A DNA stretch of 64,000 bases from Candidatus Levyibacteriota bacterium (GTDB taxonomy: Bacteria > Patescibacteriota > Microgenomatia > Levybacterales > UBA12049), in contig JACOXU010000001.1 of the NCBI GenBank assembly GCA_016182185.1, positions 274,915 to 338,914 on the forward strand, in the 5' to 3' direction. Under the pieces are notes generated by a model. The model had not been told where the DNA came from, did no database searches, and was given only the letters and a program-made list of their open reading frames with translations. Both the position numbers and the translations under genes were made by a program. Position 1 is the first letter of the stretch; every line of letters begins with the position of its first letter. This document shows positions 1 through 63,135 of the stretch, one piece after another.

Positions 1-1300
1 CCTTTGCATTGAAATAATTTTGCTGAACAAAATACTGATTTAAGTAATATAAAAAATTAAACATAAAAAATAAAAAACAAAAAGAGTATATAAAATATTT
101 TATTTGTATATTTGATATTTTATATTTGATATTTGATATTTTTTGTAAAGCAAAAAGAATTCCTATTGCTGTAAAAATTTGAAATGTTGGTAGAAAGTTA
201 AGTGTTCTGACAGCATGTGGTACTCCGCTTGTGACAGAAGCAGGAATCGGTGCTATTAAAAACCAGGCTAAAACTAAGAACTTTGTCTTTTTATCAAAAT
301 TTCCGAAAATTAAGCAGTATATTCCAATCAAAAGAAAAGGTAATTCAAAAAGATACAAAAGTCCCATATTGGGTGCATGATGCCTCGCAATATCACCTGT
401 GATAAAAAGCCAATTTAGATCAAAATGCGAAACATATCCAGAAACTACTGATTTAGCAAAAGCAATTCGTCTATTATCAAATAACAATCCTAACGTATCA
501 TTATTTTTTTGATCTTCTATTAGTTTTTTGGCATTCTCTTCAAGAAGATTGGTAGTTTCTGAAAAAACACTAACCCCCTTGGCTCTTCCCAGCGCGTTTT
601 TATCAGTTATCGTATAAGACACAATCGGAATCGAAATTAATAATCCAGCTATTGCTGCCAGGAAAATATATTTTTTGGGTATTGAAAAAAGTTCTTTTCT
701 AAAGATTATAATCATGGCCAAAAGTAGAATTGGGGCAAAAACTTTTTCGCTTTGATAAATGTATAGATTTATTGCCATAAAAAATGCCGAAAATACTAGA
801 AACCACGGTTTTTTGAGACCCTTAATAAAAAACAGCACTGAAAAAACATTGAAAGAAAGACCCACGTTTGACTCGAATGCAATTCTTGAAAACTGGATAT
901 GCCAAGGCGAAATAGCAAGCAAGAATGAAGATAAAAGTGCAATTTCTTCTTTTCTGAACAATTCTTTAATTAAAAAATATATTGCAAAAACTGTCATAAC
1001 TCCAAATACTGCAGAAGGAAAACGAACTGAAAAAACAGTCAGATCAAATATTGCAATTGAAGGAATAGTAAAGTAGGTGTAAAATGCAGGCTTATAGTCG
1101 TCAAAGGAACGTAAAATAACAGGAAATAGTTTTCCATATTCATCGCGCCCAGTTTGCATAATTGAGTATGCATTATACCCAAGAGCTACTTCATCCCAAT
1201 CTGGAGATATTGGAACCTCCCCAAGCTTCCAAAGTCTTAGAATTGTAGCTAGAGCTATTATTCCGATTAATAAAATTAAAATAACCTTTTTATTCATAAG
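1..1300 (-). CDS. ArnT/PMT-like (GT39/GT83-like) GT-C fold membrane glycosyltransferase, family A paralog; partial, C-terminus runs off window start
   Basis: Reverse-strand translation from ATG at 1300 is open through position 1: MNKKVILILLIGIIALATILRLWKLGEVPISPDWDEVALGYNAYSIMQTGRDEYGKLFPV...LLAISPWHIQFSRIAFE. It is collinear with the paralogs at 1316-2989, 2986-4650 and 4661-6331. It is absent from the ORF track because it has no stop inside the window. Confidence 0.65.
102..144. repeat. Heptanucleotide tandem repeat (ATTTGAT-like, about 6 units) inside the partial family A gene
   Basis: atttgta tatttga tatttta tatttga tatttga tattttt. It encodes ...QKISNIKYQISNIKY... on the minus strand. 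Confidence 0.7.
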
Positions 1301-1315
1301 TCATAAGGCTTACAC

Positions 1316-2989
1316 CTATCTTGTAAACGCCGCTAGAACAGGCTTACCATTCAACAAATAAAACGTTTTAAGCTGTTTAGATTTACTTGGAATTTTATCT
1401 GGCGTACTGATGAAAAGTATTTTTTTCTTATCATTATTTACCAAATCAAGTCTATCCATAAAACGGTATTTATCAAAGGAAAAAACATCAACAAAACCAT
1501 TTACATCTCTATTAATCTCTGCTGTTTCTCTAAACTTACTAGGATTGTAATTCGTGTAAAATAAGTAATATATGTACGGTCTTCCAAGTGAAGATATTAT
1601 TCTTACCTCATCATAGTTATCGTATTGCTGAGAAACGTAATGAATCGATTCCTTATATCCATACTGCCACTCACCAGAATAAATTCTTGGATAATGGACT
1701 ATATAATCACGGAAGAAATATAAAAAATTGAGAAATAATAGCGATAATAAGAGTAAAATTATAGCAATTCTATATTTTTTTACAAAACTTATTAAATTTA
1801 TAAAACCATAGGCAGTAATAATCTGAAAAGTTGGTAACGTCGCTTCAATTCGCAGAGCATGAGGAGTTTCCCGAGCCGTTCCTGCCGGAATTATTCCTAA
1901 AATCAGCCACAATGGAATAATCCACCAAAATCCTTCCTTTTTTTTTATCAGTAAAAATATTCCAGAAATTAAAAAGACTAAATCCCATAGATACATTTGA
2001 CCTACTGTTTGTGTGGAAAACTTGGGATTGCCATCGCCTTTTATGAAAAGAAAGTTAGGGTTTAAATTGTCAAAATAATGCTTAAGATATGAAACACCAT
2101 ATGCTAAGCGGCGATTATGAAGAATTTTTGACCAAAAGGAATTGTTGTCGTTTGCTATTTCTTGGTTTGTATTGGTAATAATTCCAATATCTGAGAAGAT
2201 GTTTACTTCCCTGAACCTAAGACTTGCTTGAGGAGAAAGTAAAAAATTGACTGATGGGATTATTAATAAAATGCCAAGAATAACTGCAAAAATAACTTGC
2301 TTCTTAATCTTGAATAACTCCTTTCGAAAACCTATTGCCAATGCCAAAATTAAAAGCGGGGAAACAATTCGTGCAGTGTTGAAAGTGTATAAAGAAATTG
2401 CAAGCGAGATTATTGAAAGGATAATAAACCATCTGCTTCCTTTAACCGCCCAGAGAAAAAAGATTACTCCCGCAATGATAAAAAACGTTGCGACATTTGC
2501 TTCAAAGGCGGCGCGGGAAAGCATAATATGCCAAGGACTGATTGCCAGAATTAAAGCTGAAAACAAAGCATATAACTCAGTATTTAGTATTTTGTATTTA
2601 GTATTTTGTATTTGTTTAGGATTTAAGATTTCGGATTCAGAATTTGTTTTGAATAGCGTTTTTACTAAAAAGTATGTCATCAATACAGTCAAAACTCCGA
2701 AAAAGGCAGATGGAAAGCGAACACTAAATTCCGAAAGACCAAAAATTTTCACAGGAATTATAGCAAGATATGCATAAACCGGAGGTTTAAAATCGCCAAA
2801 TGACTCCAGATAATCCAAGGGCAAAAATCTTCCGAATTCATCTCGGGCTTCTTTGCCCAGCGAATAAGCATTATATCCCCACGCTGCCTCATCCCAGGTT
2901 AGAGATGGCGGGTTCTGTCCCAGCTGATAAAACCGTAAAAAAGAAGCAATTAATAATATAAAAAATAGAAATATGTAAATTTTTTTCAT
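1316..2989 (-). CDS. ArnT/PMT-like (GT39/GT83-like) GT-C membrane glycosyltransferase, family A paralog
   Basis: 557 aa, multi-TM. The N-terminal loop carries the conserved D-E (WDEAAWGYNAYS) and ISPWH motifs typical of 4-amino-arabinose/dolichyl-P-mannose protein mannosyltransferase-like enzymes. Confidence 0.7.
   Translation of the reverse strand: MKKIYIFLFFILLIASFLRFYQLGQNPPSLTWDEAAWGYNAYSLGKEARDEFGRFLPLDYLESFGDFKPPVYAYLAIIPVKIFGLSEFSVRFPSAFFGVLTVLMTYFLVKTLFKTNSESEILNPKQIQNTKYKILNTELYALFSALILAISPWHIMLSRAAFEANVATFFIIAGVIFFLWAVKGSRWFIILSIISLAISLYTFNTARIVSPLLILALAIGFRKELFKIKKQVIFAVILGILLIIPSVNFLLSPQASLRFREVNIFSDIGIITNTNQEIANDNNSFWSKILHNRRLAYGVSYLKHYFDNLNPNFLFIKGDGNPKFSTQTVGQMYLWDLVFLISGIFLLIKKKEGFWWIIPLWLILGIIPAGTARETPHALRIEATLPTFQIITAYGFINLISFVKKYRIAIILLLLSLLFLNFLYFFRDYIVHYPRIYSGEWQYGYKESIHYVSQQYDNYDEVRIISSLGRPYIYYLFYTNYNPSKFRETAEINRDVNGFVDVFSFDKYRFMDRLDLVNNDKKKILFISTPDKIPSKSKQLKTFYLLNGKPVLAAFTR
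2581..2615. repeat. Heptanucleotide tandem repeat (TATTTAG/TATTTTG, 5 units) inside the family A gene 1316-2989
   Basis: tatttag tattttg tatttag tattttg tatttgt. It encodes QIQNTKYKILNTE in the loop before the ISPWH motif. Confidence 0.7.
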
Positions 2990-4650
2990 GATATAAGTTT
3001 TACAATATAATAAACAGATTTTGAATAAACTCCGTCAATCTTTTTCAAAACTTCAAACTTGTATTGTCTTTTTTCAGATTGAATTAAATTATTTTGAGAA
3101 TTAAAATCCTCAGAAGACAAAATAAATATTGTATTTCCCTTTATATATGATGACAAATCTGAAGTTGCAAAATTTATTCCCTCTCCCCTATCCCACTGTG
3201 AAATGCCAAAATGAATATTTTCAAATCCATCAATACTTCCACTTTTCTGGTATAAAGATGGCTGGTATTTAAGATAAAACAGCATATAAATATAAGGGCG
3301 CCAAAAGTAGCCTGTCACATAAATGTTATCGTACTTACTTTTATTTTCTTTTACAAACTGTGCCATTTGTTTATGCCCGTCGCCCCAAACTAGAGATGTA
3401 TGATATGGCTGATAATCAAAGTAAAGAACCAGAAAACGGATGAAAAAGAAGATAAAAACAATTACAAATAGGCTCAAATAAAATTTAAAAAATCTATTTT
3501 TTTTCAAAATATTATATAAATAATAAATTCCCATTGCTGAAAACAGAACTACGACAGGAACGTTAGGCAAAGTTCTGAATGGATTAGGCTGCTGCGTTGT
3601 AAGCCCTCCTACGATTGGGACTGCGAAAAACCAAGCAATAAAAATCCATTTCCATTTTTCTTTTATTCTAAATAAGAAATAGATTCCCAGAAGCACAAGG
3701 GGAGCTTCCCAAAGATACATAAGACCCATGGGTCCTGTACCAGTGGCAAAATAAAAATCCGGAGCCAAATTCTTAAGATAATTTTCTGAAAATTGCTGGA
3801 GATAGGCAATGCGCCTGTTATATATAATCTTTGAAAGTAAAGAATTATTATTTCTTAAAATTGCCTGTGAGTATGGATTAGTATAACTTTTATCCTCAAG
3901 AATGCTGACTGTATTTACTCTCGTTAAACCAACAGGATTAAGAATATTGAAAAGAATAGGAATAGAAAATATAACTCCCAGAATAATACCTGCTGTCACC
4001 CATTTCTTAATTTTTAAAAATCTGTCTTTATAGATAAGAAAGAAAACCAAAAAAACAATTGGGATTAAAATTCTTGAAGTATAGTAAAAATAAAACGAAA
4101 TAACTGCTGACATTACAGAAGCTATAAAGAAAGATGGATTTTTAAATGTTTTAACAAGAAGCAAAATTGAAAGTACAATAAAAAAGAGGCTTCCATTTGT
4201 TTCAAATGCTGCTCTTGAAAAATTAATATGCCAGGGAGATATAGCCAGAAGTAGAGCCGCTACTTCTGGAATTTCTAATTTCCAATTTTTAATTTCTAAT
4301 TTAAGGTTTGTATTACGAAATAATTCTTTGAGTAGAAAATAAAAAGCGATAATCGTGAGAACTCCAAGAAAGGCGGAGGGAAACCGAACACCAAATTCAT
4401 TAAGGCCGAATATTTTCTCGGAAATCGCAACTGAATAAATCATTCCTGGAAGCTTTGAATCATCAAAAGAACGAAAGAAAATCGGCCAAGGATTGCCGTA
4501 TTCATCTTTTCCCGTAGTCAATATTGAGTAGGCATTATAACCTATGGCAGCCTCATCATGTGAAACACCGGGAGGAATCTGACCTAAATCCCAAAACCGC
4601 AAAATAATACCTATAAAAATAATAACAGTCAGAAATATATATTTTTTCAT
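2986..4650 (-). CDS. ArnT/PMT-like GT-C membrane glycosyltransferase, family A paralog
   Basis: 554 aa with HDEAAIGYNAYS and ISPWH motifs. It overlaps its neighbour by 4 nt, consistent with translational coupling. Confidence 0.7.
   Translation of the reverse strand: MKKYIFLTVIIFIGIILRFWDLGQIPPGVSHDEAAIGYNAYSILTTGKDEYGNPWPIFFRSFDDSKLPGMIYSVAISEKIFGLNEFGVRFPSAFLGVLTIIAFYFLLKELFRNTNLKLEIKNWKLEIPEVAALLLAISPWHINFSRAAFETNGSLFFIVLSILLLVKTFKNPSFFIASVMSAVISFYFYYTSRILIPIVFLVFFLIYKDRFLKIKKWVTAGIILGVIFSIPILFNILNPVGLTRVNTVSILEDKSYTNPYSQAILRNNNSLLSKIIYNRRIAYLQQFSENYLKNLAPDFYFATGTGPMGLMYLWEAPLVLLGIYFLFRIKEKWKWIFIAWFFAVPIVGGLTTQQPNPFRTLPNVPVVVLFSAMGIYYLYNILKKNRFFKFYLSLFVIVFIFFFIRFLVLYFDYQPYHTSLVWGDGHKQMAQFVKENKSKYDNIYVTGYFWRPYIYMLFYLKYQPSLYQKSGSIDGFENIHFGISQWDRGEGINFATSDLSSYIKGNTIFILSSEDFNSQNNLIQSEKRQYKFEVLKKIDGVYSKSVYYIVKLIS
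4271..4305. repeat. Heptanucleotide tandem repeat (ATTTCTA-like, 5 units) inside the family A gene 2986-4650
   Basis: atttcta atttcca attttta atttcta atttaag. It encodes LKLEIKNWKLEI in the same loop position as the tract in the neighbouring paralog. Confidence 0.7.
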
Positions 4651-10956: not shown

Positions 10957-13361
10957 TATTTTTTAATCTTATGTAAAACAACAGCTAAAAATGAAAATAA
11001 CATTAAACCCAATAAGGTTGATGCTAGTCCAAGCTTGAATGATAATGGTTCGTATTTAAAGGTTACCATATGATTACCCCCCGGAACAACCACGGCTCGG
11101 AAAGAGTAATTAGCTCGATAAATTTTAGTTTTTTGATTATCTATATAAGCATTCCAACCAGGATAGAAATTATCTGAGAGAAAAAGAATAGAATTATTGT
11201 TAGTTTTTGTTTTAACTGAAATTAAATTTGGAGAGTATAAATTAATCTCAGAAGTTCCCTGAAAATCTTCAACCGAACTAAAATTAATTGGATTTTCTTC
11301 TAAAATTACTATTTTGGAAAGGTCTATATTTGGATCAAAAAGAGTATTTAAAATTTCTTGCGGCTTTTCTTTTTTTTCGAATTTCCCTACCAAAAAAGTC
11401 CTTGGCAAAGCAAGTTTATTTCTATATAGCAAAAATTTACCGTCGGACCATATTCTGTTTAAATTACTTCCAACATTATCCTCCTTAGGTTTTAAATCCC
11501 TATCTATTATGTAAGCCACAGAAAGAAGAGATAGTAATCTGTTTCTATAATGATCGCTCTCAATTGTCTCCATGTTCTCGGCAAAAGGGAGTTTGGCATC
11601 TGCCCTTGGTATCTCTTGTGAATATTTTCCTTTATTTGTTCCTGCAAAGAGCAATTCACCATATCTACTGATATAAAAGGAGTCATAACCCTCAGGAGAA
11701 TAAAGATTATAATAAGTTAAAAGATTGGATTCGACATAAGATTTTCCAACACTCCATACCCTACTAACACCGGCTACTCTTTTGGCTTGTTCCAGGATAG
11801 GCAAATTGGGAAAAACAAACTCTCTATCTGAAAAGTACAAATATTTATTTGCAAAGTATAAACTTCCAAAAAGCGAAATTATAATCATGAAATAGGCAAC
11901 ATGATTTGTGATTTTTTTAAAAAAGGCACTAATTAAAATAATAATTATTGACACTAGATAGAAAATAGAAGGAAGAATGAGATTCCTGAAACTTCGAGTC
12001 GCAAACTCACCGGAAGGATCGATAATTCTTTTATAAAAAACAAATCCCCAGGCAGCGATAAAAACAGAAGTTAAAATTAGAATTACTAACATAAAACTTT
12101 TTTTTGATATTTTTTGGGTTAAAAAATAATTTAGACCAAAAGCAGAAAGTACCGAAATCGAAAAAGTACTGATCAAAAAAATTCTTGATGGAATAATAGC
12201 TGATAAAAAGGGCATTTTTGAATAATAAAGCAAGAACCAGCTCGTTGGGAGAGACAGCCCTAAGGATAGCGTTACCAAAAAAACAATTCTAAAAAAAATT
12301 GAATATTTATGAGTTTTCGTCAGTAATGCAAATAAGCCGAAGATTAATCCTGGAATGCCAATATAGAGAACCCTTTCGTAAAAAAATCCTCCCCCAAAAT
12401 AATTATGGACTCCCGGATTCCCAAAAAAATCTGAAGAAATAAAAGTAACTAGTCTGTTTAAGGGGAGAAGGTATAAATCGAAAATAAATTTAGCATCAGT
12501 TGTTCCCCTGGCTGAGTAAATATATGCTTCAAGACTTGGGATTAAATGAATCCCTGCAATCAACAAAGAGATCAAAAATCCTGACAGAATCCAGACTAAT
12601 TTTTTAAAAGTAATTTCCTTTTTAACAAATAGATAAAATAACCAAAGAAAGGAAAAAAGAAATACATATAGACTCGTCTGAAACCAACCTGACAATATCG
12701 ACAAGGTTAATCCGGCAATTAAAATTGAAAAAGAAAAAGCTGAAAGTTTTTTTCTAAAGTTTAATATTGCAAATAGTACGATCGGAAGAAACACTGCCGA
12801 GTAAGTACTCATCAAAGACTCTTCCCACCACGCAATCATGAATCCTGAGAAAGTAAAAACAGTTGCCCCAAAAAAACTAGCTTTTTTATCCAAGGATAAT
12901 TCTTTCAAGAAAAGATACATAAAAACTCCTGTAGTAAGAGGTGTTAAGATAATAATTATTGACCACGCGTCAATTTGAGGCAAAAAAAGAAATAAAAAAC
13001 TTAAGGGATGGAAAGCTGCTGACTGATATGTAGCAAGGAGAGTATTTCCCGAAAAATAATAAGGATTCCAAAGAGGCAATGTAAAATTTTTTATTTGATC
13101 TGTGGTTATTTTTCTTAAAGGATAGAAAATTCTCAAATTATCAAATCCAATGGGCTTGCTGGGAGGACCAGACACATATCCCTTCCACTTATAGGAAGAA
13201 AAAGGTTCATAATAGGAGACAAGAAGATTGCCTGGAATAGGTACTTTTTTTTCAAAAAAATAAGGTTTAAAGAAAAGAAAAGTTAAAGTTATAAAAATAA
13301 GAATAACGAAAAGAATATCTTTCCTCATTATTGGGTAAAGCGGTATTTTAAAAGAGTCCAA
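10956..13361 (-). CDS. YfhO-like GT-C membrane glycosyltransferase, family C paralog
   Basis: 801 aa with an N-terminal TM, an LPLWNPYYFSGNTLLATYQSAAFHPL loop, about 14 TMs and a large C-terminal extracytoplasmic domain, the architecture of YfhO family proteins. Confidence 0.6.
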   Translation of the reverse strand: MDSFKIPLYPIMRKDILFVILIFITLTFLFFKPYFFEKKVPIPGNLLVSYYEPFSSYKWKGYVSGPPSKPIGFDNLRIFYPLRKITTDQIKNFTLPLWNPYYFSGNTLLATYQSAAFHPLSFLFLFLPQIDAWSIIIILTPLTTGVFMYLFLKELSLDKKASFFGATVFTFSGFMIAWWEESLMSTYSAVFLPIVLFAILNFRKKLSAFSFSILIAGLTLSILSGWFQTSLYVFLFSFLWLFYLFVKKEITFKKLVWILSGFLISLLIAGIHLIPSLEAYIYSARGTTDAKFIFDLYLLPLNRLVTFISSDFFGNPGVHNYFGGGFFYERVLYIGIPGLIFGLFALLTKTHKYSIFFRIVFLVTLSLGLSLPTSWFLLYYSKMPFLSAIIPSRIFLISTFSISVLSAFGLNYFLTQKISKKSFMLVILILTSVFIAAWGFVFYKRIIDPSGEFATRSFRNLILPSIFYLVSIIIILISAFFKKITNHVAYFMIIISLFGSLYFANKYLYFSDREFVFPNLPILEQAKRVAGVSRVWSVGKSYVESNLLTYYNLYSPEGYDSFYISRYGELLFAGTNKGKYSQEIPRADAKLPFAENMETIESDHYRNRLLSLLSVAYIIDRDLKPKEDNVGSNLNRIWSDGKFLLYRNKLALPRTFLVGKFEKKEKPQEILNTLFDPNIDLSKIVILEENPINFSSVEDFQGTSEINLYSPNLISVKTKTNNNSILFLSDNFYPGWNAYIDNQKTKIYRANYSFRAVVVPGGNHMVTFKYEPLSFKLGLASTLLGLMLFSFLAVVLHKIKK

Positions 13362-14079: not shown

Positions 14080-15009
14080 TCATTCAATAAATTCTGTAAT
14101 TTCTCTATCGGTTTTGCTAAATAATTTTTGAGCCCTGAAACTTGATTTTATAATTTTTGGAAATAAAATTAAAGCCCTAAAAAAACCTAGAAAAAAAGCT
14201 GAGTCTAATCTCAATATTGCCATGATCAAATGATAAGGTAGCCACAATATATGAAGTATTTGTAAATCAAAATCTGTCGCATTTTCCCATACGAAAATAA
14301 ATTGATTTCTGTATGATACTACTTTTATTTCATAATCTGAATATTTACTCTTTATTGATCCTTTTTCATGCTCGTGAACAACGATACTTTTAGGTTCAAA
14401 TTGTATTTTGTATCCTGATTTAAGAGCCCTATAGGAAAGATCAATGTCCTCCCAGTAAAAAGGTGAATAAAGTTCATTAAATCCTGAAAGTTTATCCCAA
14501 ATAAATTTTCTAAATGACCCGCTTCCGCCGCTTACCCAAAGAGTGTCATTTTTACCTACTTCTCCTCTTTGATGGACTAGAAACCCTTTCTGCCATCTGC
14601 CTATGCCTCTACCCCGAAGCACTGCTTTACTCTTCTCAATACTTTTATCCATACAACCTACTGCAAAAATCCTTTCATCATCAAAATGCTCTATCAATGG
14701 CTCAAGAAAATTCTTTTCAGGAGCAACATCCGTATTTAATAGTACTAAAATATCCCCACTTGCATCTTCTACCCCACGATTTACACTTCTTGCAAATCCC
14801 AAATTCCTTTCATTCTTAATTAGTTTGAGGTTTGAGATTTGAGGTTTGAGATTTGAGACTGTTGATATACTTTCATCAGTTGATGCATCATCAACTATTA
14901 TTATTTCCACATCCCCATGATAAAACTTTGCAGCCTCTATAACCCTTGGTAAATTTTTTTTTAGAAGAACTTCTCCATTATAATTTGGAATAATAATACT
15001 TAGATTCAT
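14080..15009 (-). CDS. GT2 family glycosyltransferase
   Basis: MNLSIIIPNYNGEV...IIVDDASTDES...NTD (DXD). It contains a heptamer repeat tract at 14824-14858. Confidence 0.65.
   Translation of the reverse strand: MNLSIIIPNYNGEVLLKKNLPRVIEAAKFYHGDVEIIIVDDASTDESISTVSNLKPQISNLKLIKNERNLGFARSVNRGVEDASGDILVLLNTDVAPEKNFLEPLIEHFDDERIFAVGCMDKSIEKSKAVLRGRGIGRWQKGFLVHQRGEVGKNDTLWVSGGSGSFRKFIWDKLSGFNELYSPFYWEDIDLSYRALKSGYKIQFEPKSIVVHEHEKGSIKSKYSDYEIKVVSYRNQFIFVWENATDFDLQILHILWLPYHLIMAILRLDSAFFLGFFRALILFPKIIKSSFRAQKLFSKTDREITEFIE
14824..14858. repeat. Heptanucleotide tandem repeat (TTTGAGR, 5 units) inside the GT2 gene 14080-15009
   Basis: tttgagg tttgaga tttgagg tttgaga tttgaga. It encodes SNLKPQISNLK. 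Confidence 0.75.
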
Positions 15010-17285
15010 AATAAAGAATTAGAAAAAACTACCTCGTGTTTTCCCTCTTCAATCACAATGCCTCTAAAATCGAAGTTTGTGAGATATATCTTGGTAGATA
15101 CACCATCAATCTCCGCACGCCAAGTTGGATAAAAACTATCAGTCAAAACCAGGAATCCTTTATTCTCATTTTCTGTATTGATAATAATTTTATTAGAACG
15201 ATATTCAACAATATTTACTTTTCCGTTTTTATTACCAACCTGTGAATCTTCAAAGTTTTCAACTATTGCTGTTTTGAAGGGATCGAAATCGGATCTAAAT
15301 ATCTCATTAATTGCCTCTGTTTTACCAGCAACATTTTTCACTTCATTGACAAAAAAAGCTCGAGGTAGTACATTTTTATTTTCATAAACTCTTGCTTCTC
15401 CTTCCTGAAAAACTTTAACTAAAGCACCTGATTTAAGATCAGCCAAACTTAGAATATATTTAACTCCCAAAAGATCTATAATTTTCGAAGAATAATTATA
15501 CGGAGTAATAATTCTATTGAAGCCAAACGGAGGTTTGATGTTCGGCACTCCTCTTTTTGATGCAGTAATTAATTCAGCATATCTGCGTAAATATAAAGGG
15601 TCATAACCTTCTATGCTCTGGATTTTATATATTATCGAAAAGTTAGGAGGCAAAATTCTTGAATCCGTACTCATAACTCTAAAATTATCATTTTTTTCTT
15701 GAAGGAAGGACAAAATTTTCGTTTGTGGAAATAAATAATCTTTTTTTGTAAAAGGCGTGAATTTCCAGCCGGCTCTAAACAAATCAAAAATAGTTATGGA
15801 TAATACTAGAACGGAAAAAACAAGAAAAACATTTTTGTTTTTTTTATGAAAAAAAATATAAAAAAATATTGATAAACTAGACAAAAGAAAAATTAGAGTC
15901 GGTAAGACAATATTTCTTTTTGCAACGAGTAAGTTATCAATAATTAAATTTTTATCGATGTTTCTTCCGTAATAAACAAATAACCAAAGACAAATTAATA
16001 TTATCAAAATAAATATGATCGGATGGAAAATTTCCTTCTTATTTTTCATTTTCAAGAAGTAGTCAAAACCAAATGAAGCAAGAACTGCCAAAGAAAAATC
16101 AGTCAGAAATAGCAATCGCGTAGGTTGGGTTGTATTTATAAAAGGAATGTTTAGAATAAAAGGAATTTTCGCAAATATTGTTGGGAGTGCAAGAATAAGT
16201 GAGAGAAAAAATATTGTACCAAAAAATAGAGTTTTCCTATCGCGACGAAAGAAAAGAGAATACAGGGAAAAAATAAGCGGAAAGACACCGATATAACCTA
16301 AAAATTCTCCATAATTCCATTCTCCCCAGTAATTAAGCGTCGTAGGGTTTCCAAAAAAATCAGGAGCAATAAATTGAATTAAATTCTGCCAGGGAATAAA
16401 CCAACCGGGGTTTTGCCATGGAATTTGATCAACGCTTCGCGCTGAAAATAAAATAAATTGAAAGAGCGGATACCACTGAACGAAAGTTAATATAAAAAAT
16501 AAAAGATAAAAAATCAAAAAAATAAACAAAATTTTTTTTATTCTACCGTACTGAGCCCATCTTACAATTAAGTACACCGTAGAAGTAATAAATAAATAGA
16601 AGAATGTTTGCAAATGTCCCGCAAAGAATGCTGATGTCAGAGAAAGTACGAATATTAAACCCCAAATTAAAAAATTTTTATTTTTGATACTTAATACTGA
16701 ATACTTAATACTGAATACTATTTTATCCGTCGCTAATAATATAAGGGGTAGCCAAAGAGCGGTATGCAGGATTGTGTTCCATTCCATCCAAGCAATCGAA
16801 AATCCGGAAAATGAGAATGTAATCGAACCTATTATACCTGCCCATCTATTTAATTTAAAATTATTTAGATATAAAAATAAAAATATTCCAGCTAAAAGAG
16901 GCTGGAGAATAATTAGAATACTCCAAGAGAAATTAAATGGGAGTATAAAAAATAATAAATTTAACGGATAAAGTGCTGCCGATTGGTGATTTGCCAAAAG
17001 CGGTGTTCCTGCAAAATTATACGGATTCCATAATGGCAGCTCTAAGTTCTTCTCAAGATTAATTGCTAAATACCTCCATGGGTATTGCTGCCTCACTGGA
17101 TCCGTAATCAGGAAATTTTTAAATGGCACTCCTCGAGGAAATTCTTTTGAGTATAAATCGCGGAATGGATGATAAAGCCCTACAATTGTGTCGGATGGAA
17201 TAGGATACAAACTTTTAAAAATAAATTGCCAAAAAAATGTAAAAGCAATAAAAATTATAAAAAATATTGGTAATAATCTTTTCAC
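15006..17285 (-). CDS. YfhO-like GT-C membrane glycosyltransferase, family C paralog
   Basis: 759 aa with LPLWNPYNFAGTPLLANHQSAALYPL and the same architecture as 10956-13361. It overlaps the GT2 gene by 4 nt. Confidence 0.6.
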   Translation of the reverse strand: MKRLLPIFFIIFIAFTFFWQFIFKSLYPIPSDTIVGLYHPFRDLYSKEFPRGVPFKNFLITDPVRQQYPWRYLAINLEKNLELPLWNPYNFAGTPLLANHQSAALYPLNLLFFILPFNFSWSILIILQPLLAGIFLFLYLNNFKLNRWAGIIGSITFSFSGFSIAWMEWNTILHTALWLPLILLATDKIVFSIKYSVLSIKNKNFLIWGLIFVLSLTSAFFAGHLQTFFYLFITSTVYLIVRWAQYGRIKKILFIFLIFYLLFFILTFVQWYPLFQFILFSARSVDQIPWQNPGWFIPWQNLIQFIAPDFFGNPTTLNYWGEWNYGEFLGYIGVFPLIFSLYSLFFRRDRKTLFFGTIFFLSLILALPTIFAKIPFILNIPFINTTQPTRLLFLTDFSLAVLASFGFDYFLKMKNKKEIFHPIIFILIILICLWLFVYYGRNIDKNLIIDNLLVAKRNIVLPTLIFLLSSLSIFFYIFFHKKNKNVFLVFSVLVLSITIFDLFRAGWKFTPFTKKDYLFPQTKILSFLQEKNDNFRVMSTDSRILPPNFSIIYKIQSIEGYDPLYLRRYAELITASKRGVPNIKPPFGFNRIITPYNYSSKIIDLLGVKYILSLADLKSGALVKVFQEGEARVYENKNVLPRAFFVNEVKNVAGKTEAINEIFRSDFDPFKTAIVENFEDSQVGNKNGKVNIVEYRSNKIIINTENENKGFLVLTDSFYPTWRAEIDGVSTKIYLTNFDFRGIVIEEGKHEVVFSNSLL
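16687..16721. repeat. Heptanucleotide tandem repeat (ATACTKA, 5 units) inside the YfhO-like gene 15006-17285
   Basis: atactta atactga atactta atactga atactat. It encodes SIKYSVLSIKN. Confidence 0.7.
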
Positions 17286-36313: not shown

Positions 36314-37519
36314 TTATTTTTTAGCTCTTACTATATTATTTAAAGCATATACTGCTCCTGTTAATGCCAGTGATAATATTATCCCAGCTGAGGTAAGCCA
36401 AAACAATATTTGAGGAACAGGATAATTCCAGTCGCCTTTTAATAAAAATGGGATATATTGTGAAAGCGAGAAAAAAGACATAGTCAAAACAGGAATTAAA
36501 ATATAATATTTTTTGCTTGTTAGACTTACAAAAGGAATTACCAGAAGTAAATACCACGGTTGAAAATTCGTTCTGATAGATACAACAACTACCGCCCCTA
36601 CCATCATAACAGTAATTAAATTTATCAAAAACACGAAATTAATTTGTCGTTTTTTGTAGAAAAAGTAACTTGCTAAATAAACTGGGAATATTAAACCGGT
36701 GGCAAATTTAATTCCTGCCGATAATCCAAGTCCGATCCATGAAAAAATATTTTTTTTATTCAAAAAAAGAAATAGGGAAAAAATTGCAAAAAACATCATG
36801 AGAATATCGTTATGAGAGGAGACTAATCCTTCAATAATTATCAATGGGTTAAATGCGAAAAAAGCAAGTCCAAAAAGACTTTCCTTTGGAGAAACCTTAA
36901 TTAAAATCTTTTCAATAAAATAGGCTGTTCCTAAATAACCTAGGCTCATTAAAAATTTAAAAAGAAAAAAAGTGGGAAGAAAAAAATTGAGTCCGATGAA
37001 TGAAAGTGGAATCGTCAATACCAACCAGAAGGGGCCATATGGATAAAATCTGTGAGTCCAATGCATAAATGAAAGCATGGGGTCATTGGGAAAATCCAAT
37101 GCTTTGTGGGTATATGGATTTTGCTGGTAATAAGTTACGATCTTTGCATCAAAAATATAGTTGAATAAATCATGAGAAAACGCATTGTAAGAAAAGGATA
37201 GAATTATACCTGTAGCAATAATTAAAATCCACAACTGCTGCCTTTTGAATCTATGACTATTAATAAATATCAAATGTAATCCATAGAAAACAAACAACAA
37301 AAATATTATTAAACTGTAAAATCCCGTAGATAATGGACGGTTGAAATATCCAATTTGCTGAAAAAATTTTTGTACTACCTGCCAATATGACCATTGAGAC
37401 AAGGTAAGACTTAAATCGACTTGGGTAAAAGAGTAAAGGAATAATCCGACAATGGTTAATAAATATCCAATGCTAATAAATTTTAAATTTGAAATTTGAA
37501 ATTTGAAATTGGACATCAT
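36314..37519 (-). CDS. Polytopic membrane protein (possible GT-C-like mannosyltransferase)
   Basis: 401 aa with about 10 TM segments. The N-terminus carries a heptamer repeat (MMSNFKFQISNLKFISIG). Confidence 0.4.
   Translation of the reverse strand: MMSNFKFQISNLKFISIGYLLTIVGLFLYSFTQVDLSLTLSQWSYWQVVQKFFQQIGYFNRPLSTGFYSLIIFLLFVFYGLHLIFINSHRFKRQQLWILIIATGIILSFSYNAFSHDLFNYIFDAKIVTYYQQNPYTHKALDFPNDPMLSFMHWTHRFYPYGPFWLVLTIPLSFIGLNFFLPTFFLFKFLMSLGYLGTAYFIEKILIKVSPKESLFGLAFFAFNPLIIIEGLVSSHNDILMMFFAIFSLFLFLNKKNIFSWIGLGLSAGIKFATGLIFPVYLASYFFYKKRQINFVFLINLITVMMVGAVVVVSIRTNFQPWYLLLVIPFVSLTSKKYYILIPVLTMSFFSLSQYIPFLLKGDWNYPVPQILFWLTSAGIILSLALTGAVYALNNIVRAKK
37478..37512. repeat. Heptanucleotide tandem repeat (AAATTTG, 5 units) at codons 3-13 of gene 36314-37519
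   Basis: aaatttt aaatttg aaatttg aaatttg aaattgg. It encodes SNFKFQISNLKF immediately after the start codon. Confidence 0.75.
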
Positions 37520-61059: not shown

Positions 61060-61359
61060 ATGAATAGACAAGAGAAAATAAATGGTTCAAGAAGAATCTC
61101 TGTGCATGATATGCCTGATTTTACTGCCGCACTGGAGCAGTACGGAGAGATATTAAAAACGACAGGGGTGCCTCCTGCCCGCGCAGAAGCATGTACAATG
61201 GGTATTATAGATAAAGCATCAACAAAAAGAGAAGAGGCTAATAGGTTTATTAATTTTGTTGCAAAATTATCTAAAGAAATTCAGAATGGAAATGGAAATC
61301 ACCAAGAAGAGGTCGTCGTTTTCAGCGCTAAAAATGGTTCAGGGAATGGATCGGCGTAA
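61060..61359 (+). CDS. Hypothetical 99-aa protein downstream of the attenuator-like leader
   Basis: ORF with higher GC than neighbours and no recognisable motifs. It overlaps the recJ 3' end convergently by 21 nt. Confidence 0.35.
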   Translation: MNRQEKINGSRRISVHDMPDFTAALEQYGEILKTTGVPPARAEACTMGIIDKASTKREEANRFINFVAKLSKEIQNGNGNHQEEVVVFSAKNGSGNGSA

Positions 61360-63135
61360 ATCCTTGATCTTAAGCTGGAGCTTGCTGTTTCCATTCCATT
61401 CATTTTTTTCAATTTGATAGACAAGATCAATTCTGTCGCCTATTCGAATTTCATTTGAACGCTCACCCATCCCAAACCCTATGCCTTCAATTTTGAGATT
61501 TGAAATTTGAGTTTTGAGATTTAATTTTAGGTGCCTCCCATCCATTCCGACCAGTCTCATATCTTCAATAATTATATTTTTACTCACAAAGGCAGGTTGG
61601 GAATTCCCCATTCCAAACGGAGCAAGTTTTTGCAAAACATTATAGAATTCTTCATTCAAATAATTAATATCAAATTCACAATCGATATAAAGACTTCTGA
61701 CAAACAAGTCTTGAGTTAAAATTTTATCCGCGAGTTTTTCAAGTTTTTTTTGAAGAAGCTCAAGGTTTATTGTTTCGACTGTAAATCCTGCAGCCATCGG
61801 ATGGCCTCCGACATCGACTAATAAATCTGATGCGCTTCTGATAAACTCGACTATATTGAATCCGCTGATCGACCTTGCTGATGCCTTAGAATAAATTTCT
61901 CCTTTTGAGATAACAATAGAGGGTCGATAAAATTCCTCAACTAATTTTCCTGCTATCAATCCGATGACTCCCTGCTGGTACGATTTATCTGCTATTAAAA
62001 GAAGTTTTGGAATTTGTGATTTGGAATTTGTGATTTGAAGTCTTGCGTGTTCAAAAGATTTAAGTGTGATTTCTTGTCTTTTTCTATTGGTATGCCCTAA
62101 TTTGTAAGCCAGATCTTTCGCTCTTTCTTTACTCTTAGTACAAAGGAGTCTTAAGCTATCCATTGCGTACTCAAGCCTGCCCATGGCATTAAGACGCGGA
62201 GCAATAATATGTCCAATTTCATATACGCCAATTAAAACTTGATCGATTCCCGTTTCTTCAATTATTGCCAAAAGGCCGGGTCTTTTGGTTTTCCTTAATT
62301 CCTCAAGACCGAATTTTACAAAAGTCCTATTTGCACCCTTTAAAGGAACCAGATCCGCAATTGTTGCCAAAGCAACAAGTTCAAGATGTCCAAGCGAGGA
62401 GTCCACAAAATTTTCGTTGTGAGCTTTTGCGCCACCTGCGTTTCGGGTTGAGGGAGATTTGACCGCACTGCGAACACGAAAATTTTTGCGGGCGACTTCA
62501 GCATTTATTTCTTGCGCCAGCAAGAATGCTACTCCTGCCCCGCAGACTTGTGTAGTATGGACAAAACTGTAGGCTTTGGGCAATTTTTGTGCCGATACAT
62601 GATGATCTGTAATAATTACATCAATCCCCTCTCTATTGGCAAGATCGACGGCATCATTTGCTACAATTCCATTATCAACAGTGATAATCAAAGAACAATT
62701 TTTTCCGTCCAACTGGCGGATTAAATTTTTAATTCCTGTCTTCGACAGTCCGTACCCTTCATCCATTCTGTGAGGAATATATGGCAATACTTTTGCACCT
62801 AAATCATTTAAGGTTTCCCATAAAATAGCAGTCCCGCAAATTCCATCTACATCATAATCACCATAAATAACAATTTCCTCCTTGCTTATAATCGCTCTAT
62901 TGATTCGGGCAATCGCTTTCTTAAGCTGTTTTTTATCGATGCCAACACTTGAAATCGTTACATCTGAAAGCTTTGGATTTAAAAATTTTTCCTTTTCTTT
63001 TTCGGTTTTAATTCCCCGATTTTCAAGAAGAACGTTTAAAATTTCTTCGATCTTTAATTTTTTATTTTTTATTTTGCCCGCCCCGCTTCGCTTGTCGAGG
63101 CCGGGGAATTTATTTACGATTTTCCATTTTTTCAT
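61339..63135 (-). CDS. recJ: Single-stranded-DNA-specific exonuclease RecJ (DHH/DHHA1)
   Basis: DHH motifs IYGDYDVDGICGTAIL and VIITDHH, a DHHA1-like region (GGHPMAAG) and a C-terminal OB-like domain. 598 aa. It contains two heptamer repeat tracts and GC-rich insert patches. Confidence 0.85.
   Translation of the reverse strand: MKKWKIVNKFPGLDKRSGAGKIKNKKLKIEEILNVLLENRGIKTEKEKEKFLNPKLSDVTISSVGIDKKQLKKAIARINRAIISKEEIVIYGDYDVDGICGTAILWETLNDLGAKVLPYIPHRMDEGYGLSKTGIKNLIRQLDGKNCSLIITVDNGIVANDAVDLANREGIDVIITDHHVSAQKLPKAYSFVHTTQVCGAGVAFLLAQEINAEVARKNFRVRSAVKSPSTRNAGGAKAHNENFVDSSLGHLELVALATIADLVPLKGANRTFVKFGLEELRKTKRPGLLAIIEETGIDQVLIGVYEIGHIIAPRLNAMGRLEYAMDSLRLLCTKSKERAKDLAYKLGHTNRKRQEITLKSFEHARLQITNSKSQIPKLLLIADKSYQQGVIGLIAGKLVEEFYRPSIVISKGEIYSKASARSISGFNIVEFIRSASDLLVDVGGHPMAAGFTVETINLELLQKKLEKLADKILTQDLFVRSLYIDCEFDINYLNEEFYNVLQKLAPFGMGNSQPAFVSKNIIIEDMRLVGMDGRHLKLNLKTQISNLKIEGIGFGMGERSNEIRIGDRIDLVYQIEKNEWNGNSKLQLKIKDLRRSIP
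61492..61526. repeat. Heptanucleotide tandem repeat (TTTGARA-like, 5 units) inside recJ
   Basis: tttgaga tttgaaa tttgagt tttgaga tttaatt. It encodes KTQISNLKIEG. Confidence 0.7.
62005..62039. repeat. Heptanucleotide tandem repeat (ATTTGTG/ATTTGGA, 5 units) inside recJ
   Basis: ttttgga atttgtg atttgga atttgtg atttgaa. It encodes QITNSKSQIPK. Confidence 0.7.

What the first reader, a model, noticed from the sequence alone, without database searches (positions are those of the whole stretch)
14824..14858. In-frame heptanucleotide (period-7) tandem repeat tracts inside at least seven unrelated genes encode a shared QISNLK-like peptide
Eight tracts of 4-6 units of a 7-nt repeat (variants of ATTTGAN/TTTGAGR/AAATTTG) lie inside coding regions on both strands: 102-144, 2581-2615, 4271-4305, 14824-14858, 16687-16721, 37478-37512, 61492-61526 and 62005-62039. 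Three 7-nt units make 21 nt, so the same heptamer is read in all three frames. A perfect TCTCAAA repeat of 3 units gives SQISNLK. The same peptide therefore appears in a GT2 enzyme (PQISNLKLI), a GT-C membrane protein (KFQISNLKF), another GT-C (QKISNIKYQISNIKY) and RecJ (KTQISNLKI). Seven is not a multiple of three, so gain or loss of one unit by slipped-strand mispairing shifts the frame and truncates the protein. This is the hallmark of contingency (phase-variable) loci, which typically lie in surface-glycosylation genes. Six of the eight tracts are in the glycosylation supercluster. Units are slightly imperfect (alternating variants, so effectively period 14), which may damp slippage. Alternatively the tracts are footprints of a short repeat-inserting process that targets permissive loops.
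Basis: seen in the sequence. Interest (0 to 1): 0.85.

Follow-up and report, generated by a model that had tools for sequence, protein, structure and literature searches.

The report
Slippery seven-base repeats inside genes
Short runs of a 7-base repeat sit in frame inside sugar-coat-building genes and a DNA-repair gene of an uncultured Levybacteria (CPR) bacterium; in close relatives the same runs lose whole units and break the gene, so they behave like a previously undescribed, lineage-wide set of mutational on/off switches.

Summary
All eight period-7 tracts are at the stated coordinates and in frame. The window has 8 period-7 arrays against 0 at periods 4-6 and 8-12, and 0.01 expected by simulation.

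The window comes from a Candidatus Levybacteria genome. The tracts are a lineage trait: 170 period-7 arrays in 2.1 Mb of relatives, fading out with phylogenetic distance. About 89% lie at roughly 12 recurrent sites in GT2, PMT_2 and YfhO glycosyltransferases and RecJ, a density about 10 times that of other genes.

Orthologous sites carry different heptamers in different species, which indicates concerted evolution at the DNA level.

Five whole-unit length polymorphisms turned up between otherwise 100% identical contigs of relatives:
- -7 nt and -14 nt in recJ
- -7 nt at the orthologous site of the focal GT2, in two samples
- -7 nt in yfhO
- an in-frame -21 nt in yfhO

The frameshifting variants split the gene.

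So the slipped-strand, frame-switching reading holds mechanistically. Three things are not shown:
- variation in this genome itself
- reversibility
- adaptive benefit

OFF alleles are rare: 0 of 147 intragenic tracts in representative genomes.

Verdict: a new heptanucleotide variant of SSR contingency loci, apparently unreported in CPR bacteria.

The parts
102..144 (-). Heptamer tract with sense unit about AAATATC, encoding QKISNIKYKISNIQIKY.
   Evidence: TRF; six-frame translation; Pfam (no hit for 1-400)
2581..2645 (-). Heptamer tract. The core 2581-2615 alternates AAATACA and AAATACT (ABAB) and encodes KQIQNTKYKILNT. It continues as degenerate heptamers to about 2645. It covers aa 125-137 of a PMT/PMT_2 GT-C protein.
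   Evidence: TRF (rows 2579-2613 and 2582-2645)
1316..2989 (-). Host gene: PMT/PMT_2 family GT-C glycosyltransferase, 557 aa.
4271..4305 (-). Heptamer tract (sense AAATTAG / AAATTGG / AAATTAA) encoding LKLEIKNWKLEI, aa 116-127 of a PMT_2 GT-C protein.
2986..4650 (-). Host gene: PMT_2 GT-C glycosyltransferase, 554 aa.
14824..14858 (-). Focal tract. Sense strand reads TCTCAAA TCTCAAA CCTCAAA TCTCAAA CCTCAAA and encodes VSNLKPQISNLK (aa 51-62). It forms the C-terminal half of helix alpha-2, the turn and the start of beta-3 of the GT-A fold. The orthologous site in a relative shows a -7 nt frameshift allele.
14080..15009 (-). Host gene: GT2 glycosyltransferase, 309 aa, with a hydrophobic C-terminus.
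16687..16721 (-). Heptamer tract (sense AGTATTC / AGTATTA, ABAB) encoding IVFSIKYSVLSI, aa 189-200 of YfhO. This is the recurrent YfhO site at which orthologs show 0, +7 aa (IKYQVLS) or longer states.
15006..17285 (-). Host gene: YfhO-family GT-C membrane glycosyltransferase, 759 aa.
37478..37512 (-). Heptamer tract (sense AAATTTC x4-5) encoding SNFKFQISNLKF at aa 3-14, directly after the start codon of a GT87-like membrane protein.
36314..37519 (-). Host gene: GT87-like (weak Pfam hit) polytopic membrane protein, 401 aa.
61492..61526 (-). Heptamer tract (sense AAATCTC / AAAACTC / AAATTTC) encoding KLNLKTQISNLK, aa 537-548 of RecJ. It forms the tip of an OB-fold beta-hairpin and is 4 aa longer than in solved RecJ 8y30.
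62005..62039 (-). Heptamer tract (sense CAAATCA / CAAATTC, ABAB) encoding LQITNSKSQIPK, aa 366-377 of RecJ. There is no net length change relative to solved RecJ.
61339..63135 (-). Host gene: recJ (DHH, DHHA1 and RecJ_OB domains), 598 aa. RecJ is the most tract-dense gene family in the lineage.

Best explanation
The tracts are slippage-prone heptanucleotide microsatellites. They are kept at about a dozen conserved positions in dispensable genes of Levybacteria: GT2, PMT_2 and YfhO surface-glycosylation enzymes, and recJ.

**How the switch works.** Seven is coprime to three, so a stop-free heptamer is read in all three frames and yields a 7-residue peptide repeat. Strand misalignment during replication adds or removes whole units.
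- A change of 1 or 2 units shifts the frame and truncates the protein within a few codons (OFF).
- A change of 3 units keeps the frame and alters loop length by 7 residues.

Repeated gain and loss under selection for an open frame homogenises the units. The same site therefore carries a different heptamer in each species. The result is population-level ON/OFF heterogeneity of contingency-locus type in cell-surface glycosylation and in a repeat-stabilising exonuclease.

**Shown:** the excess of period 7, its lineage specificity, its concentration at particular sites and families, concerted evolution of units, and whole-unit polymorphisms that break or keep the frame in relatives.

**Inferred:** that the window's own tracts vary, that switching is reversible, and that it is used adaptively.
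For: **1. Excess of period 7.** The window has 8 arrays at period 7 against 0 at other short periods, with 0.01 expected by simulation. In 1.35 Mb of relatives the count is 53 against at most 1.

**2. Lineage gradient.** Loci are binned by RecJ identity to the window.
- At least 50% identity: 15 tracts in 121 kb.
- 43-49% identity: 15 tracts in 357 kb.
- At most 42% identity: 1 tract in 215 kb.

**3. Concentration in a few families.** 138 of 155 tracts assigned to ORFs lie in RecJ, YfhO, PMT_2 and three GT2 families (1.57 per 10 kb). Elsewhere the density is 0.15 per 10 kb. The tracts sit at about 12 recurrent positions.

**4. Concerted evolution.** The same RecJ, GT2 and YfhO sites carry different heptamers in different species. 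For example AAATCTC gives KTQISNLK, while AAATGTC gives KCQMSNVK. One base change is repeated in every unit and produces three coordinated residue changes.

**5. Whole-unit polymorphisms.** In each case these are the only differences over 0.36-2.3 kb.
- recJ -7 nt: L163 versus L164-166.
- recJ -14 nt: L167 versus L168-171.
- GT2 -7 nt: L172 and L173 versus L174-181.
- yfhO -7 nt: L182 versus L183-185.
- yfhO -21 nt, in frame: L186 versus L187-189.

**6. In-silico effect.** A change of 1 or 2 units truncates every window host protein. A change of 3 units keeps the frame.

**7. Orientation bias.** TCAAA on the sense strand is forced, because the reverse complement contains TGA.
Against: - No out-of-frame tract occurs among 147 intragenic tracts in species-representative genomes. 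neuO is OFF in about 66% of genomes. OFF states therefore look selected against or transient.
- The tracts are short (4-5 units) and often imperfect.
- All five variants are deletions and come from short-read iterative-k assemblies. No read-level confirmation was possible.
- The focal tract is invariant in the three assemblies that cover it.
- Concentration in a few families could reflect inheritance of old sites through paralogs plus tolerance of gene loss, rather than selection for switching.
- RecJ and a CCA-adding enzyme are not surface genes.
Confidence: 0.55

Rival explanations
1. Non-adaptive molecular drive. The slippage mechanism is the same, but the tracts are selfish or neutral mutational hot spots. 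They survive only where transient gene loss and a variable surface segment are tolerated, that is in non-essential glycosyltransferase paralogs and recJ. Frameshift alleles are a mutational load, not a switch.
For: - OFF alleles are rare. None of 147 tracts is OFF in representative genomes, and roughly 5-10% of population contigs are OFF.
- Tracts are nearly absent from essential genes such as AspRS, GluRS, SecD/F and a PBP.
- Tracts sit at structurally tolerant places: a hairpin tip, a surface helix and inter-TM loops.
- Heptamer SSR excess is known in many bacteria and has been ascribed to polymerase slippage (PMC4692102).
Against: - Period-7 structure persists at the same sites across RecJ identities of 45-65%. 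That is hard to maintain by drift alone.
- GT1 enzymes and the Wzx flippase in the same clusters, also probably dispensable, have almost no tracts (1 of 66 and 0 of 41 members).
- The OFF allele is the assembled (majority) form in some samples.
Confidence: 0.33
2. Footprints of a short repeat-inserting or mobile process. Tract sequences are copied from a common template, or move between sites, into permissive loops.
For: - An identical imperfect 31-nt tract (AATTGCA AATAGCA AATAGCA AATTGCA) occurs in two different genes of one genome, L086.
- A 42-nt string that includes an aperiodic tail is shared by a YfhO tract (L010) and a GT2 tract (L016).
- TCAAA-core units make up about 39% of tracts against about 3% of background stop-free heptamer classes.
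- Small GC-rich or palindromic insertions nest inside tracts.
Against: - Unit similarity follows the site more than the genome. Pairs within 1 mismatch are 25% for the same site in different genomes, 16% for the same genome at different sites, and 12.5% as background. The permutation test gives p = 0.087.
- Shared strings are otherwise confined to the periodic part.
- No terminal repeats, target duplications or linked enzyme were seen.
- RecJ site 1 shows no net insertion relative to solved RecJ.
Confidence: 0.07
3. Selection acts on the encoded peptide. A QISNLK-like heptad motif would be functionally required, for example as an amphipathic segment or sequon, and the DNA periodicity would be secondary.
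For: The peptide QISNLK recurs in GT2, GT87-like and RecJ proteins. The focal tract is modelled as helix-turn-strand with pLDDT above 80.
Against: - Different tracts read related heptamers in other frames and give unrelated peptides: IVFSIKYSVLSI, LKLEIKNWKLEI, KQIQNTKYKILNT.
- Orthologous sites change one base in all units and so change three residues at once.
- Tracts also lie across gene junctions, where they contain stop and start codons.
- No N-x-S/T sequon is present.
Confidence: 0.03
4. Assembly or sequencing artefact.
For: The tracts are low-complexity sequence in MAGs. All length variants are deletions in short-read assemblies.
Against: - The same tracts occur in hundreds of independent assemblies from many projects.
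- The focal tract is identical in three assemblies.
- Tracts of 28-35 nt are shorter than the k-mers above 29 used in assembly.
- The -7 nt GT2 allele recurs in two samples.
- The -21 nt yfhO allele has no repeated 21-mer that could collapse.
Confidence: 0.02

Closest known systems
SSR contingency (phase-variable) loci in surface-glycan genes of Campylobacter, Haemophilus, Neisseria and Helicobacter
   Same: An intragenic tandem repeat whose unit length is not a multiple of 3. Slipped-strand gain or loss of units shifts the frame. The repeats are concentrated in glycosyltransferase genes, and populations are heterogeneous (PMC8437040 abstract).
   Different: - Here the unit is 7 nt, not 1-5 nt.
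- The tracts are only 4-5 units long and often imperfect.
- OFF alleles are rare.
- The sites are conserved across a class-level lineage with turnover of the unit sequence.
- The organism is a free-living or episymbiotic groundwater CPR bacterium, not a host-adapted pathogen.
- Switching rates are unknown.
neuO of E. coli K1 (phage CUS-3): the 5'-AAGACTC-3' heptanucleotide coding repeat
   Same: A heptanucleotide repeat inside the coding sequence is read in all three frames. The protein is full-length only when the unit number fits modulo 3. The gene modifies a surface glycan (PMC13001214). The unit even resembles AAATCTC.
   Different: - neuO is a single gene with 3-53 units at the 5' end, and about 66% of genomes are OFF.
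- Here there are dozens of genes per lineage, 4-5 units, positions mostly internal (aa 50-540), and almost all consensus alleles ON.
- The proteins are not homologous.
Lineage-specific heptamer repeats: cyanobacterial STRR / GGGGA(C/T)T, Xanthomonas GGGAATC, Beggiatoaceae TAACTGA
   Same: A strong, lineage-restricted excess of period-7 tandem arrays while other periods are at normal levels. The arrays are short, typically 2-6 units (PMC4692102; PMC4679880).
   Different: - Those arrays are overwhelmingly intergenic and built from one fixed heptamer per lineage. They are proposed to act as G-quadruplex or translational signals.
- Here 86-93% are intragenic and in frame.
- Here the units are diverse (TCAAA-core in about 39%).
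- Here unit-number changes act through the reading frame.
Tandem repeats of Borg elements that create disordered protein regions
   Same: Rapidly evolving, recently formed tandem repeats inside ORFs add low-complexity peptide segments (PMC9879509 abstract).
   Different: The Borg paper (abstract) describes repeats that add disordered protein segments, with no frame switching. The heptamers here switch the frame.

Membership tests
SSR contingency / phase-variable locus | Tandem simple-sequence repeat in an ORF or promoter, with a unit length that is not a multiple of 3 | tested here: met
   Eight period-7 tracts lie in frame in ORFs.
SSR contingency / phase-variable locus | Unit number is polymorphic among near-identical strains or within populations | tested here: inconclusive
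   Met in relatives: five whole-unit variants in recJ, GT2 and yfhO on otherwise identical DNA. Not seen for the window genome, where only tract 14824 could be compared and it was identical in three assemblies.
SSR contingency / phase-variable locus | A change in unit number toggles translation ON and OFF | tested here: met
   In silico, a change of 1 or 2 units truncates all seven host proteins. The observed variants split the genes into 224+357, 197+344, 65+221 and 284+290 aa ORFs.
SSR contingency / phase-variable locus | Repeats are over-represented and concentrated in surface or host-interaction genes | tested here: met
   Density is 1.57 per 10 kb in GT2, PMT_2, YfhO and RecJ against 0.15 per 10 kb elsewhere. 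The sites are orthologous or paralogous, so the counts are not independent events.
SSR contingency / phase-variable locus | High-frequency, reversible switching with a selectable phenotype | not testable with these tools
   This needs reads, cultures or reporter assays. Only deletions were seen, and OFF alleles are rare.
Lineage-specific heptamer SSR families (STRR, TAACTGA, GGGAATC) | Period-7 arrays strongly over-represented relative to other periods in one lineage | tested here: met
Lineage-specific heptamer SSR families (STRR, TAACTGA, GGGAATC) | One or a few fixed heptamer sequences per lineage | tested here: inconclusive
   TCAAA-core units are enriched (about 39% against about 3%), but more than 50 different unit classes occur.
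Lineage-specific heptamer SSR families (STRR, TAACTGA, GGGAATC) | Predominantly intergenic location | tested here: not met
   147 of 170 arrays lie well inside long open frames. This matches the 95% random expectation for these gene-dense genomes.
neuO-type heptanucleotide coding repeat | Heptanucleotide repeat at the 5' end of the ORF, long and highly variable (tens of units), in a homologous O-acetyltransferase | tested here: not met
   Only tract 37478 is at a 5' end. The tracts have 4-5 units, and the hosts are GT2, GT-C and RecJ proteins.
Mobile mini-elements (MITE / REP / SDR-like) | Dispersed copies of one sequence with defined ends (inverted repeats or target duplication) at non-orthologous sites | tested here: not met
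   Shared strings are limited to the periodic part, apart from two curious pairs. There is no significant within-genome sharing of units (p = 0.087).

The most novel reading that the evidence does not exclude
Levybacteria, and to a lesser degree other Microgenomates, run a lineage-wide contingency system based on heptamers. The recJ gene encodes an exonuclease reported to stabilise tandem repeats. It is itself the most tract-dense gene, with five recurrent sites, 31 tracts in 68 kb against 13 in 357 kb of its own flanks, and frameshifted alleles seen in two species. Switching RecJ OFF would raise slippage genome-wide. That would give a self-referential, reversible 'repeat-mutator' switch that tunes how fast the surface-glycosylation repertoire is reshuffled.
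Probability: 0.15. Interest if true: 0.88.

Novelty: new variant of a known kind. Interest (0 to 1): 0.66.

Why it matters
- **CPR biology.** CPR/Patescibacteria are ultra-small, mostly uncultured, and are thought to live attached to host cells. How they vary their surface is unknown. My literature searches found no report of SSR phase variation in them.
- **A testable handle.** A conserved set of frame-switching repeats in GT2, GT-C and YfhO glycosylation genes can be followed by read counting in existing metagenome time series. That would give access to surface variation, phage evasion or host switching in this group.
- **The heptamer puzzle.** An excess of heptamer repeats in bacteria was noted in 2007 and has not been explained (PMC4692102). 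Here the repeats lie in coding DNA, their turnover can be traced across orthologs, and natural length variants are available.
- **The recJ enrichment.** It suggests a possible link between repeat-stabilising nucleases and repeat-driven variation.

Tried and rejected
1. **'No enrichment, tracts are randomly placed.'** My first test gave 93% of tracts in long open frames against 95% for random positions, which suggested no preference. Family-level clustering overturned this.

2. **Frameshifted alleles in representative genomes.** Seven candidates were found. Five are one orthologous gene junction (stop of a GT2 gene, start of a YfhO gene) that lies inside the tract. One is an N-terminal tract and one a false positive. 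None is a true frameshift.

3. **Genome-specific heptamer, implying a trans-acting template or inter-locus conversion.** There is only a weak trend (16.3% against 12.5%, p = 0.087), and unit similarity follows the site instead.

4. **ABAB (period-14) structure as a general rule.** It is common in the window (4 of 8 tracts) but rare in relatives, where about 5 of 107 are ABAB and 'AAAA' is the commonest pattern.

5. **Tracts as pure insertions of 21 or 42 nt.**
   - True at the YfhO site (+7 aa).
   - Not true at RecJ site 1, where there is no length change.
   - Not true at RecJ site 2, which is +4 aa relative to a solved RecJ.
   - Not true at the GT2 site, which has mixed lengths.

6. **Slippery-site (X XXY YYZ) ribosomal frameshifting.** This fits only AAATTTC and AAATTTG units, so it was dropped.

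7. **P0441 as a second yfhO OFF allele.** It is truncated by a contig edge.

8. **Papers.** Mrazek 2007 and Elhai 2008 are not held in the library. They are cited only through PMC4692102 or from memory.

9. **More clusters.** Additional cluster look-ups gave no further clear heptamer frameshifts.
Full report
**1. The observation**

Each has period 7, 4.4-5.7 copies and 78-96% matches. Four are perfect at period 14, meaning two alternating unit variants: 2580-2613, 14824-14857, 16687-16719 and 62006-62037.

A simple self-match scan (at least 22 of 28 positions equal at a given offset) finds 8 arrays at period 7 and none at periods 4-6 or 8-12. The two recJ tracts pass only at period 14. Two extra A-rich arrays, at 46-84 and 16492-16526, also pass. 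In 200 second-order Markov simulations of the window the mean is 0.01 arrays.

All seven complete host ORFs are on the minus strand and read straight through the tracts.

By Pfam the hosts are:
- two PMT/PMT_2 GT-C enzymes
- a GT2
- a YfhO
- a weak GT87-like membrane protein
- RecJ, which carries two tracts

Positions 1-38.3 kb form a block of about 30 co-oriented glycosylation genes: PMT_2, YfhO, PTPS_related, GT87-like, eight GT2, one GT1 and a Wzx-type flippase.

The focal tract is 100% identical in two independent assemblies from other samples. It is therefore not an artefact.

**2. Organism and lineage distribution**

The window proteins are 100% identical to proteins of a Candidatus Levybacteria MAG (Microgenomates, CPR) on a 617-kb contig.

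Eighty genomic loci around GT2 orthologs (1.35 Mb) contain 53 strong period-7 arrays. There is one array at period 8 and none at other short periods. TRF finds 119 arrays there, mostly 4-5 units and 31-35 nt long.

Eighty metagenomic recJ loci show a gradient with relatedness:

| RecJ identity to the window | Tracts | Sequence scanned |
|---|---|---|
| at least 50% | 15 | 121 kb |
| 43-49% | 15 | 357 kb |
| at most 42% | 1 | 215 kb |

The phenomenon is therefore a trait of Levybacteria and, more weakly, of other Microgenomates.

**3. Where the tracts lie**

Of 170 arrays in 2.1 Mb, 147 lie well inside open frames of at least 150 codons. In these gene-dense genomes that alone is close to the random expectation, 93% against 95%.

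Clustering all 1,783 ORFs shows strong concentration:

| Family | Tracts | Members |
|---|---|---|
| RecJ | 36 | 81 |
| YfhO | 31 | 110 |
| PMT_2 GT-C | 28 | 133 |
| GT2, 309-aa type | 15 | 137 |
| GT2, 254-aa type | 15 | 84 |
| GT2, 349-aa type | 13 | 110 |

- These six families hold 138 of 155 assigned tracts, at 1.57 per 10 kb.
- All other genes hold 17 tracts in 1.15 Mb, at 0.15 per 10 kb.
- Families with one tract or none: GT1 1 of 66 members, Wzx flippase 0 of 41, AspRS 0 of 39, SecD 0 of 32, SecF 1 of 36, GluRS 1 of 32, D-Ala-D-Ala carboxypeptidase 0 of 41.

recJ carries 31 tracts in 68 kb, against 13 in 357 kb of its own flanks.

Within families the tracts occupy about 12 recurrent positions:
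- after the DDxSxD motif in all three GT2 families
- YfhO aa ~195-207 and ~241-280
- PMT_2 aa ~119-142 and ~389-430
- five sites in RecJ

Caveat: these sites are orthologous or paralogous, so the counts are not independent events. I also chose GT2 and recJ as probes because they carry tracts in the window.

**4. Structural position**

An AlphaFold model of the focal GT2 has pLDDT 80-91 over the N-terminal 100 residues. It places residues 51-62 in the second half of helix 47-57, the turn, and the start of strand 61-66.

Against solved RecJ 8y30:
- the tract at 61492 extends an OB-fold hairpin tip by 4 residues
- the tract at 62005 replaces a segment of equal length
- between the DHH domain and the linker the window RecJ has a GC-rich stretch of about 31 residues

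At the YfhO site, orthologs fall into three states: no tract, exactly +7 residues (IKYQVLS), or longer.

**5. The periodicity is a DNA property**

Related heptamers give unrelated peptides in different frames: QISNLK, IVFSIKYSVLSI, LKLEIKNWKLEI.

At one and the same RecJ hairpin, different species have (AAATCTC)n, (AAATGTC)n, (AAAGTCA)n, (AAATTTC)n, (TTCAGAA)n or (ATTTATG)n. One base change is repeated in every unit and alters three residues at once. An example is KTQISNLK versus KCQMSNVK. The same holds at the GT2 and YfhO sites. This is concerted evolution of units within a tract.

The strong orientation bias (TCAAA on the sense strand) is explained by stop codons. A tract of at least 21 nt is read in all three frames, and the reverse complement contains TGA.

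There is also a sequence preference. TCAAA-core units make up about 39% of intragenic tracts (43 of 111, counted). They account for only 2.5-3.2% of stop-free heptamer classes in coding DNA.

**6. Direct evidence for slippage**

I looked at members of 90%-identity protein clusters and then fetched their contigs.

| Case | Gene | Variant contig(s) | Reference contigs | Change | Consequence |
|---|---|---|---|---|---|
| a | recJ | L163 | L164-166 | (AAATTTC)3 vs (AAATTTC)4, -7 nt | ORFs of 224 + 357 aa |
| b | recJ, another species | L167 | L168-171 | lacks GAAATCCTAAATTC, -14 nt | ORFs of 197 + 344 aa |
| c | GT2 orthologous to the focal gene, same site | L172, L173 (two samples) | L174-181 | lacks one ATCAAAT unit, -7 nt | ORFs of 65 + 221 aa |
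| d | yfhO | L182 (a 134-kb contig) | L183-185 | lacks one CTATTTA unit, -7 nt | gene split |
| e | yfhO | L186 | L187-189 | lacks three units, -21 nt | in frame, 756 vs 763 aa |

- In every case the unit indel is the only difference over 0.36-2.3 kb.
- In case c, the other eight contigs (of at least 24 found) carry the full tract.
- Indels at these tracts therefore arise faster than point substitutions.
- They occur in whole units and produce both OFF alleles and in-frame length alleles.

In silico, a change of 1 or 2 units in each window tract gives a stop within about 20 codons. A change of 3 units keeps the frame.

Caveats:
- All five variants are deletions from short-read iterative-k assemblies.
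- The tracts (28-35 nt) are resolved at k of 29 or more.
- The -7 nt GT2 allele recurs in two samples.
- The -21 nt allele has no repeated 21-mer that could collapse.
- I therefore regard the variants as real, but only reads can prove it.

**7. Arguments against a classical contingency locus**

- In about 160 species-representative loci no intragenic tract is out of frame. The seven candidates resolve into one orthologous GT2-stop/YfhO-start junction that lies inside a longer, stop-containing tract, one N-terminal tract and one false positive.
- neuO, the textbook heptanucleotide coding switch, is OFF in 65.6% of complete K1 genomes and has 3-53 units (PMC13001214).
- Here OFF alleles are roughly one in ten to fifteen contigs, and tracts have 4-5 units.
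- The non-adaptive reading therefore remains a serious rival. Under it, the tracts are hypermutable and survive only in genes whose transient loss is tolerated.

**8. The repeat-inserting alternative**

Two curiosities exist:
- an identical imperfect 31-nt tract in two genes of one genome (L086)
- a 42-nt string shared by a YfhO tract and a GT2 tract in two genomes

However, unit similarity tracks the site rather than the genome:
- same site, different genomes: 25% of pairs within 1 mismatch
- same genome, different sites: 16%
- background: 12.5%
- permutation test: p = 0.087

No element ends were seen. I give this alternative low weight.

**9. Comparison with known systems**

- *SSR contingency loci.* The mechanism matches. 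The unit (7 nt), the short tract length, the rarity of OFF alleles, the deep conservation of sites with unit turnover, and the organism all differ.
- *neuO.* It shares the heptanucleotide, the three-frame logic and the glycan context. It is a single, long, 5'-terminal, mostly-OFF tract.
- *Lineage-specific heptamers.* The heptamer excess noted by Mrazek et al. 2007 (cited in PMC4692102) shares the period-7 bias. So do the heptamers of cyanobacteria, Xanthomonas and Beggiatoaceae (PMC4679880). Those arrays are intergenic and sequence-fixed.
- *Literature check.* I found no paper on SSR phase variation or heptamer repeats in CPR/Patescibacteria.

**10. The recJ angle**

RecJ and other single-strand exonucleases are reported to stabilise tandem repeats (Feschenko et al. 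2003, as cited in PMC3942315). The most tract-dense gene of the lineage thus encodes such an enzyme, and it is found frameshifted in two species. This invites the speculative idea of a self-referential repeat-mutator switch. I rate it at about 15%.

**11. Verdict**

The slipped-strand, frame-switching interpretation is supported mechanistically in relatives and is plausible for the window. Its adaptive 'contingency' status and variation in this genome itself remain unproven.

It is a new heptanucleotide, lineage-wide variant of a known kind of system. It is of good interest for CPR biology and for the long-standing heptamer-repeat puzzle.

Noticed in passing
window 46-84 and 16492-16526: Two further period-7 arrays, (ATAAAAA)n on the plus strand and so TTTTTAT on the sense strand. 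They lie in hydrophobic segments of the left-edge ORF and of YfhO. They pass the same self-match threshold as the eight listed tracts but are low-complexity A/T runs.
   Followed up: partly
window 62383-62505 (RecJ aa ~211-251): A stretch of about 31 residues, GC-richer than its surroundings, encodes NAEVARKNFRVRSAVKSPSTRNAGGAKAHNENFVDSS. It is absent from solved RecJ and contains a remnant GTCAAATCTCCCTCAA. In relatives this is the position ('site 0') where heptamer tracts lie and where the -7 nt and -14 nt frameshift alleles occur.
   Followed up: partly
relatives: GT2 clusters (P0012 vs P0241; P0093 vs P0254/P0255), RecJ (P0192 vs P0268; P0155 vs P0295), many YfhO orthologs: Small GC-rich insertions of 4-14 residues nest inside heptamer tracts. 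Examples are SPLGFSQGE, SAGW/SAGR, NSTSIKLRGAS, KISHLRQDFDGQANPKS, PAGRS and LRQGFGGQA. They are present or absent among proteins at least 90% identical. It is unclear whether they target the tracts or whether both simply share permissive sites.
   Followed up: partly
L085 RecJ hairpin (site 2); RecJ P0459/P0460; RecJ P0147 site A: Longer insertions occupy the same tract sites and stay in frame. They encode CHPERSEGSRD..., SCHPEFISGSRLVGIPKQVRNDK... and VILNLFQDHGSSGSRSLEMLKQVQHD. The L085 insert (about 69 nt) appears flanked by imperfect inverted repeats (TGTCATCCTGA ... TCAGAATGACA, by eye, not tool-checked), MITE-like.
   Followed up: no
L005 1275-1325, L010 3632-3685, L012 3859-3905, L022 1141-1167, L028 2936-2970: An orthologous gene junction lies inside a heptamer tract in five species. 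It is the stop of a GT2 gene of about 250 aa and the start of a YfhO gene of about 780 aa. These tracts are longer (27-54 nt), contain stop and ATG codons, and differ in unit and length between species. Unit changes there would alter the overlap of the stop and start codons. The window's equivalent junction (13328-13361) has no tract.
   Followed up: partly
L086 1628-1660 and 6025-6058; L010 8036-8089 vs L016 3679-3725: An identical imperfect tract (AATTGCA AATAGCA AATAGCA AATTGCA) occurs in two different genes of one genome. A 42-nt string that includes an aperiodic tail is shared by a YfhO tract and a GT2 tract in two genomes. This may reflect ectopic conversion between tracts.
   Followed up: partly
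window 1-38300 vs 38300-64000: G+C steps from about 0.30-0.34 in the glycosylation block to about 0.35-0.40 in the rest of the window (type IV pilus ATPase, Lon, recJ). The block is a run of about 30 co-oriented genes with many GT-C, YfhO and GT2 paralogs.
   Followed up: no
window tracts 2581, 14824, 16687, 62005: Four of the eight window tracts are perfect ABAB(A) alternations of two units that differ at one base. This pattern is rare in relatives (about 5 of 107). In some cases the variant unit would create a stop codon if it were read in another phase, so the alternation may be shaped by stop avoidance or by two-unit slippage.
   Followed up: partly
L190 (contig ERZ4903070 k141_2925520): A 31.5-kb contig begins about 55-85 nt (estimated from ORF lengths, not aligned) downstream of the yfhO tract that is polymorphic in L182. 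This could reflect an assembly break at a heterogeneous tract.
   Followed up: no
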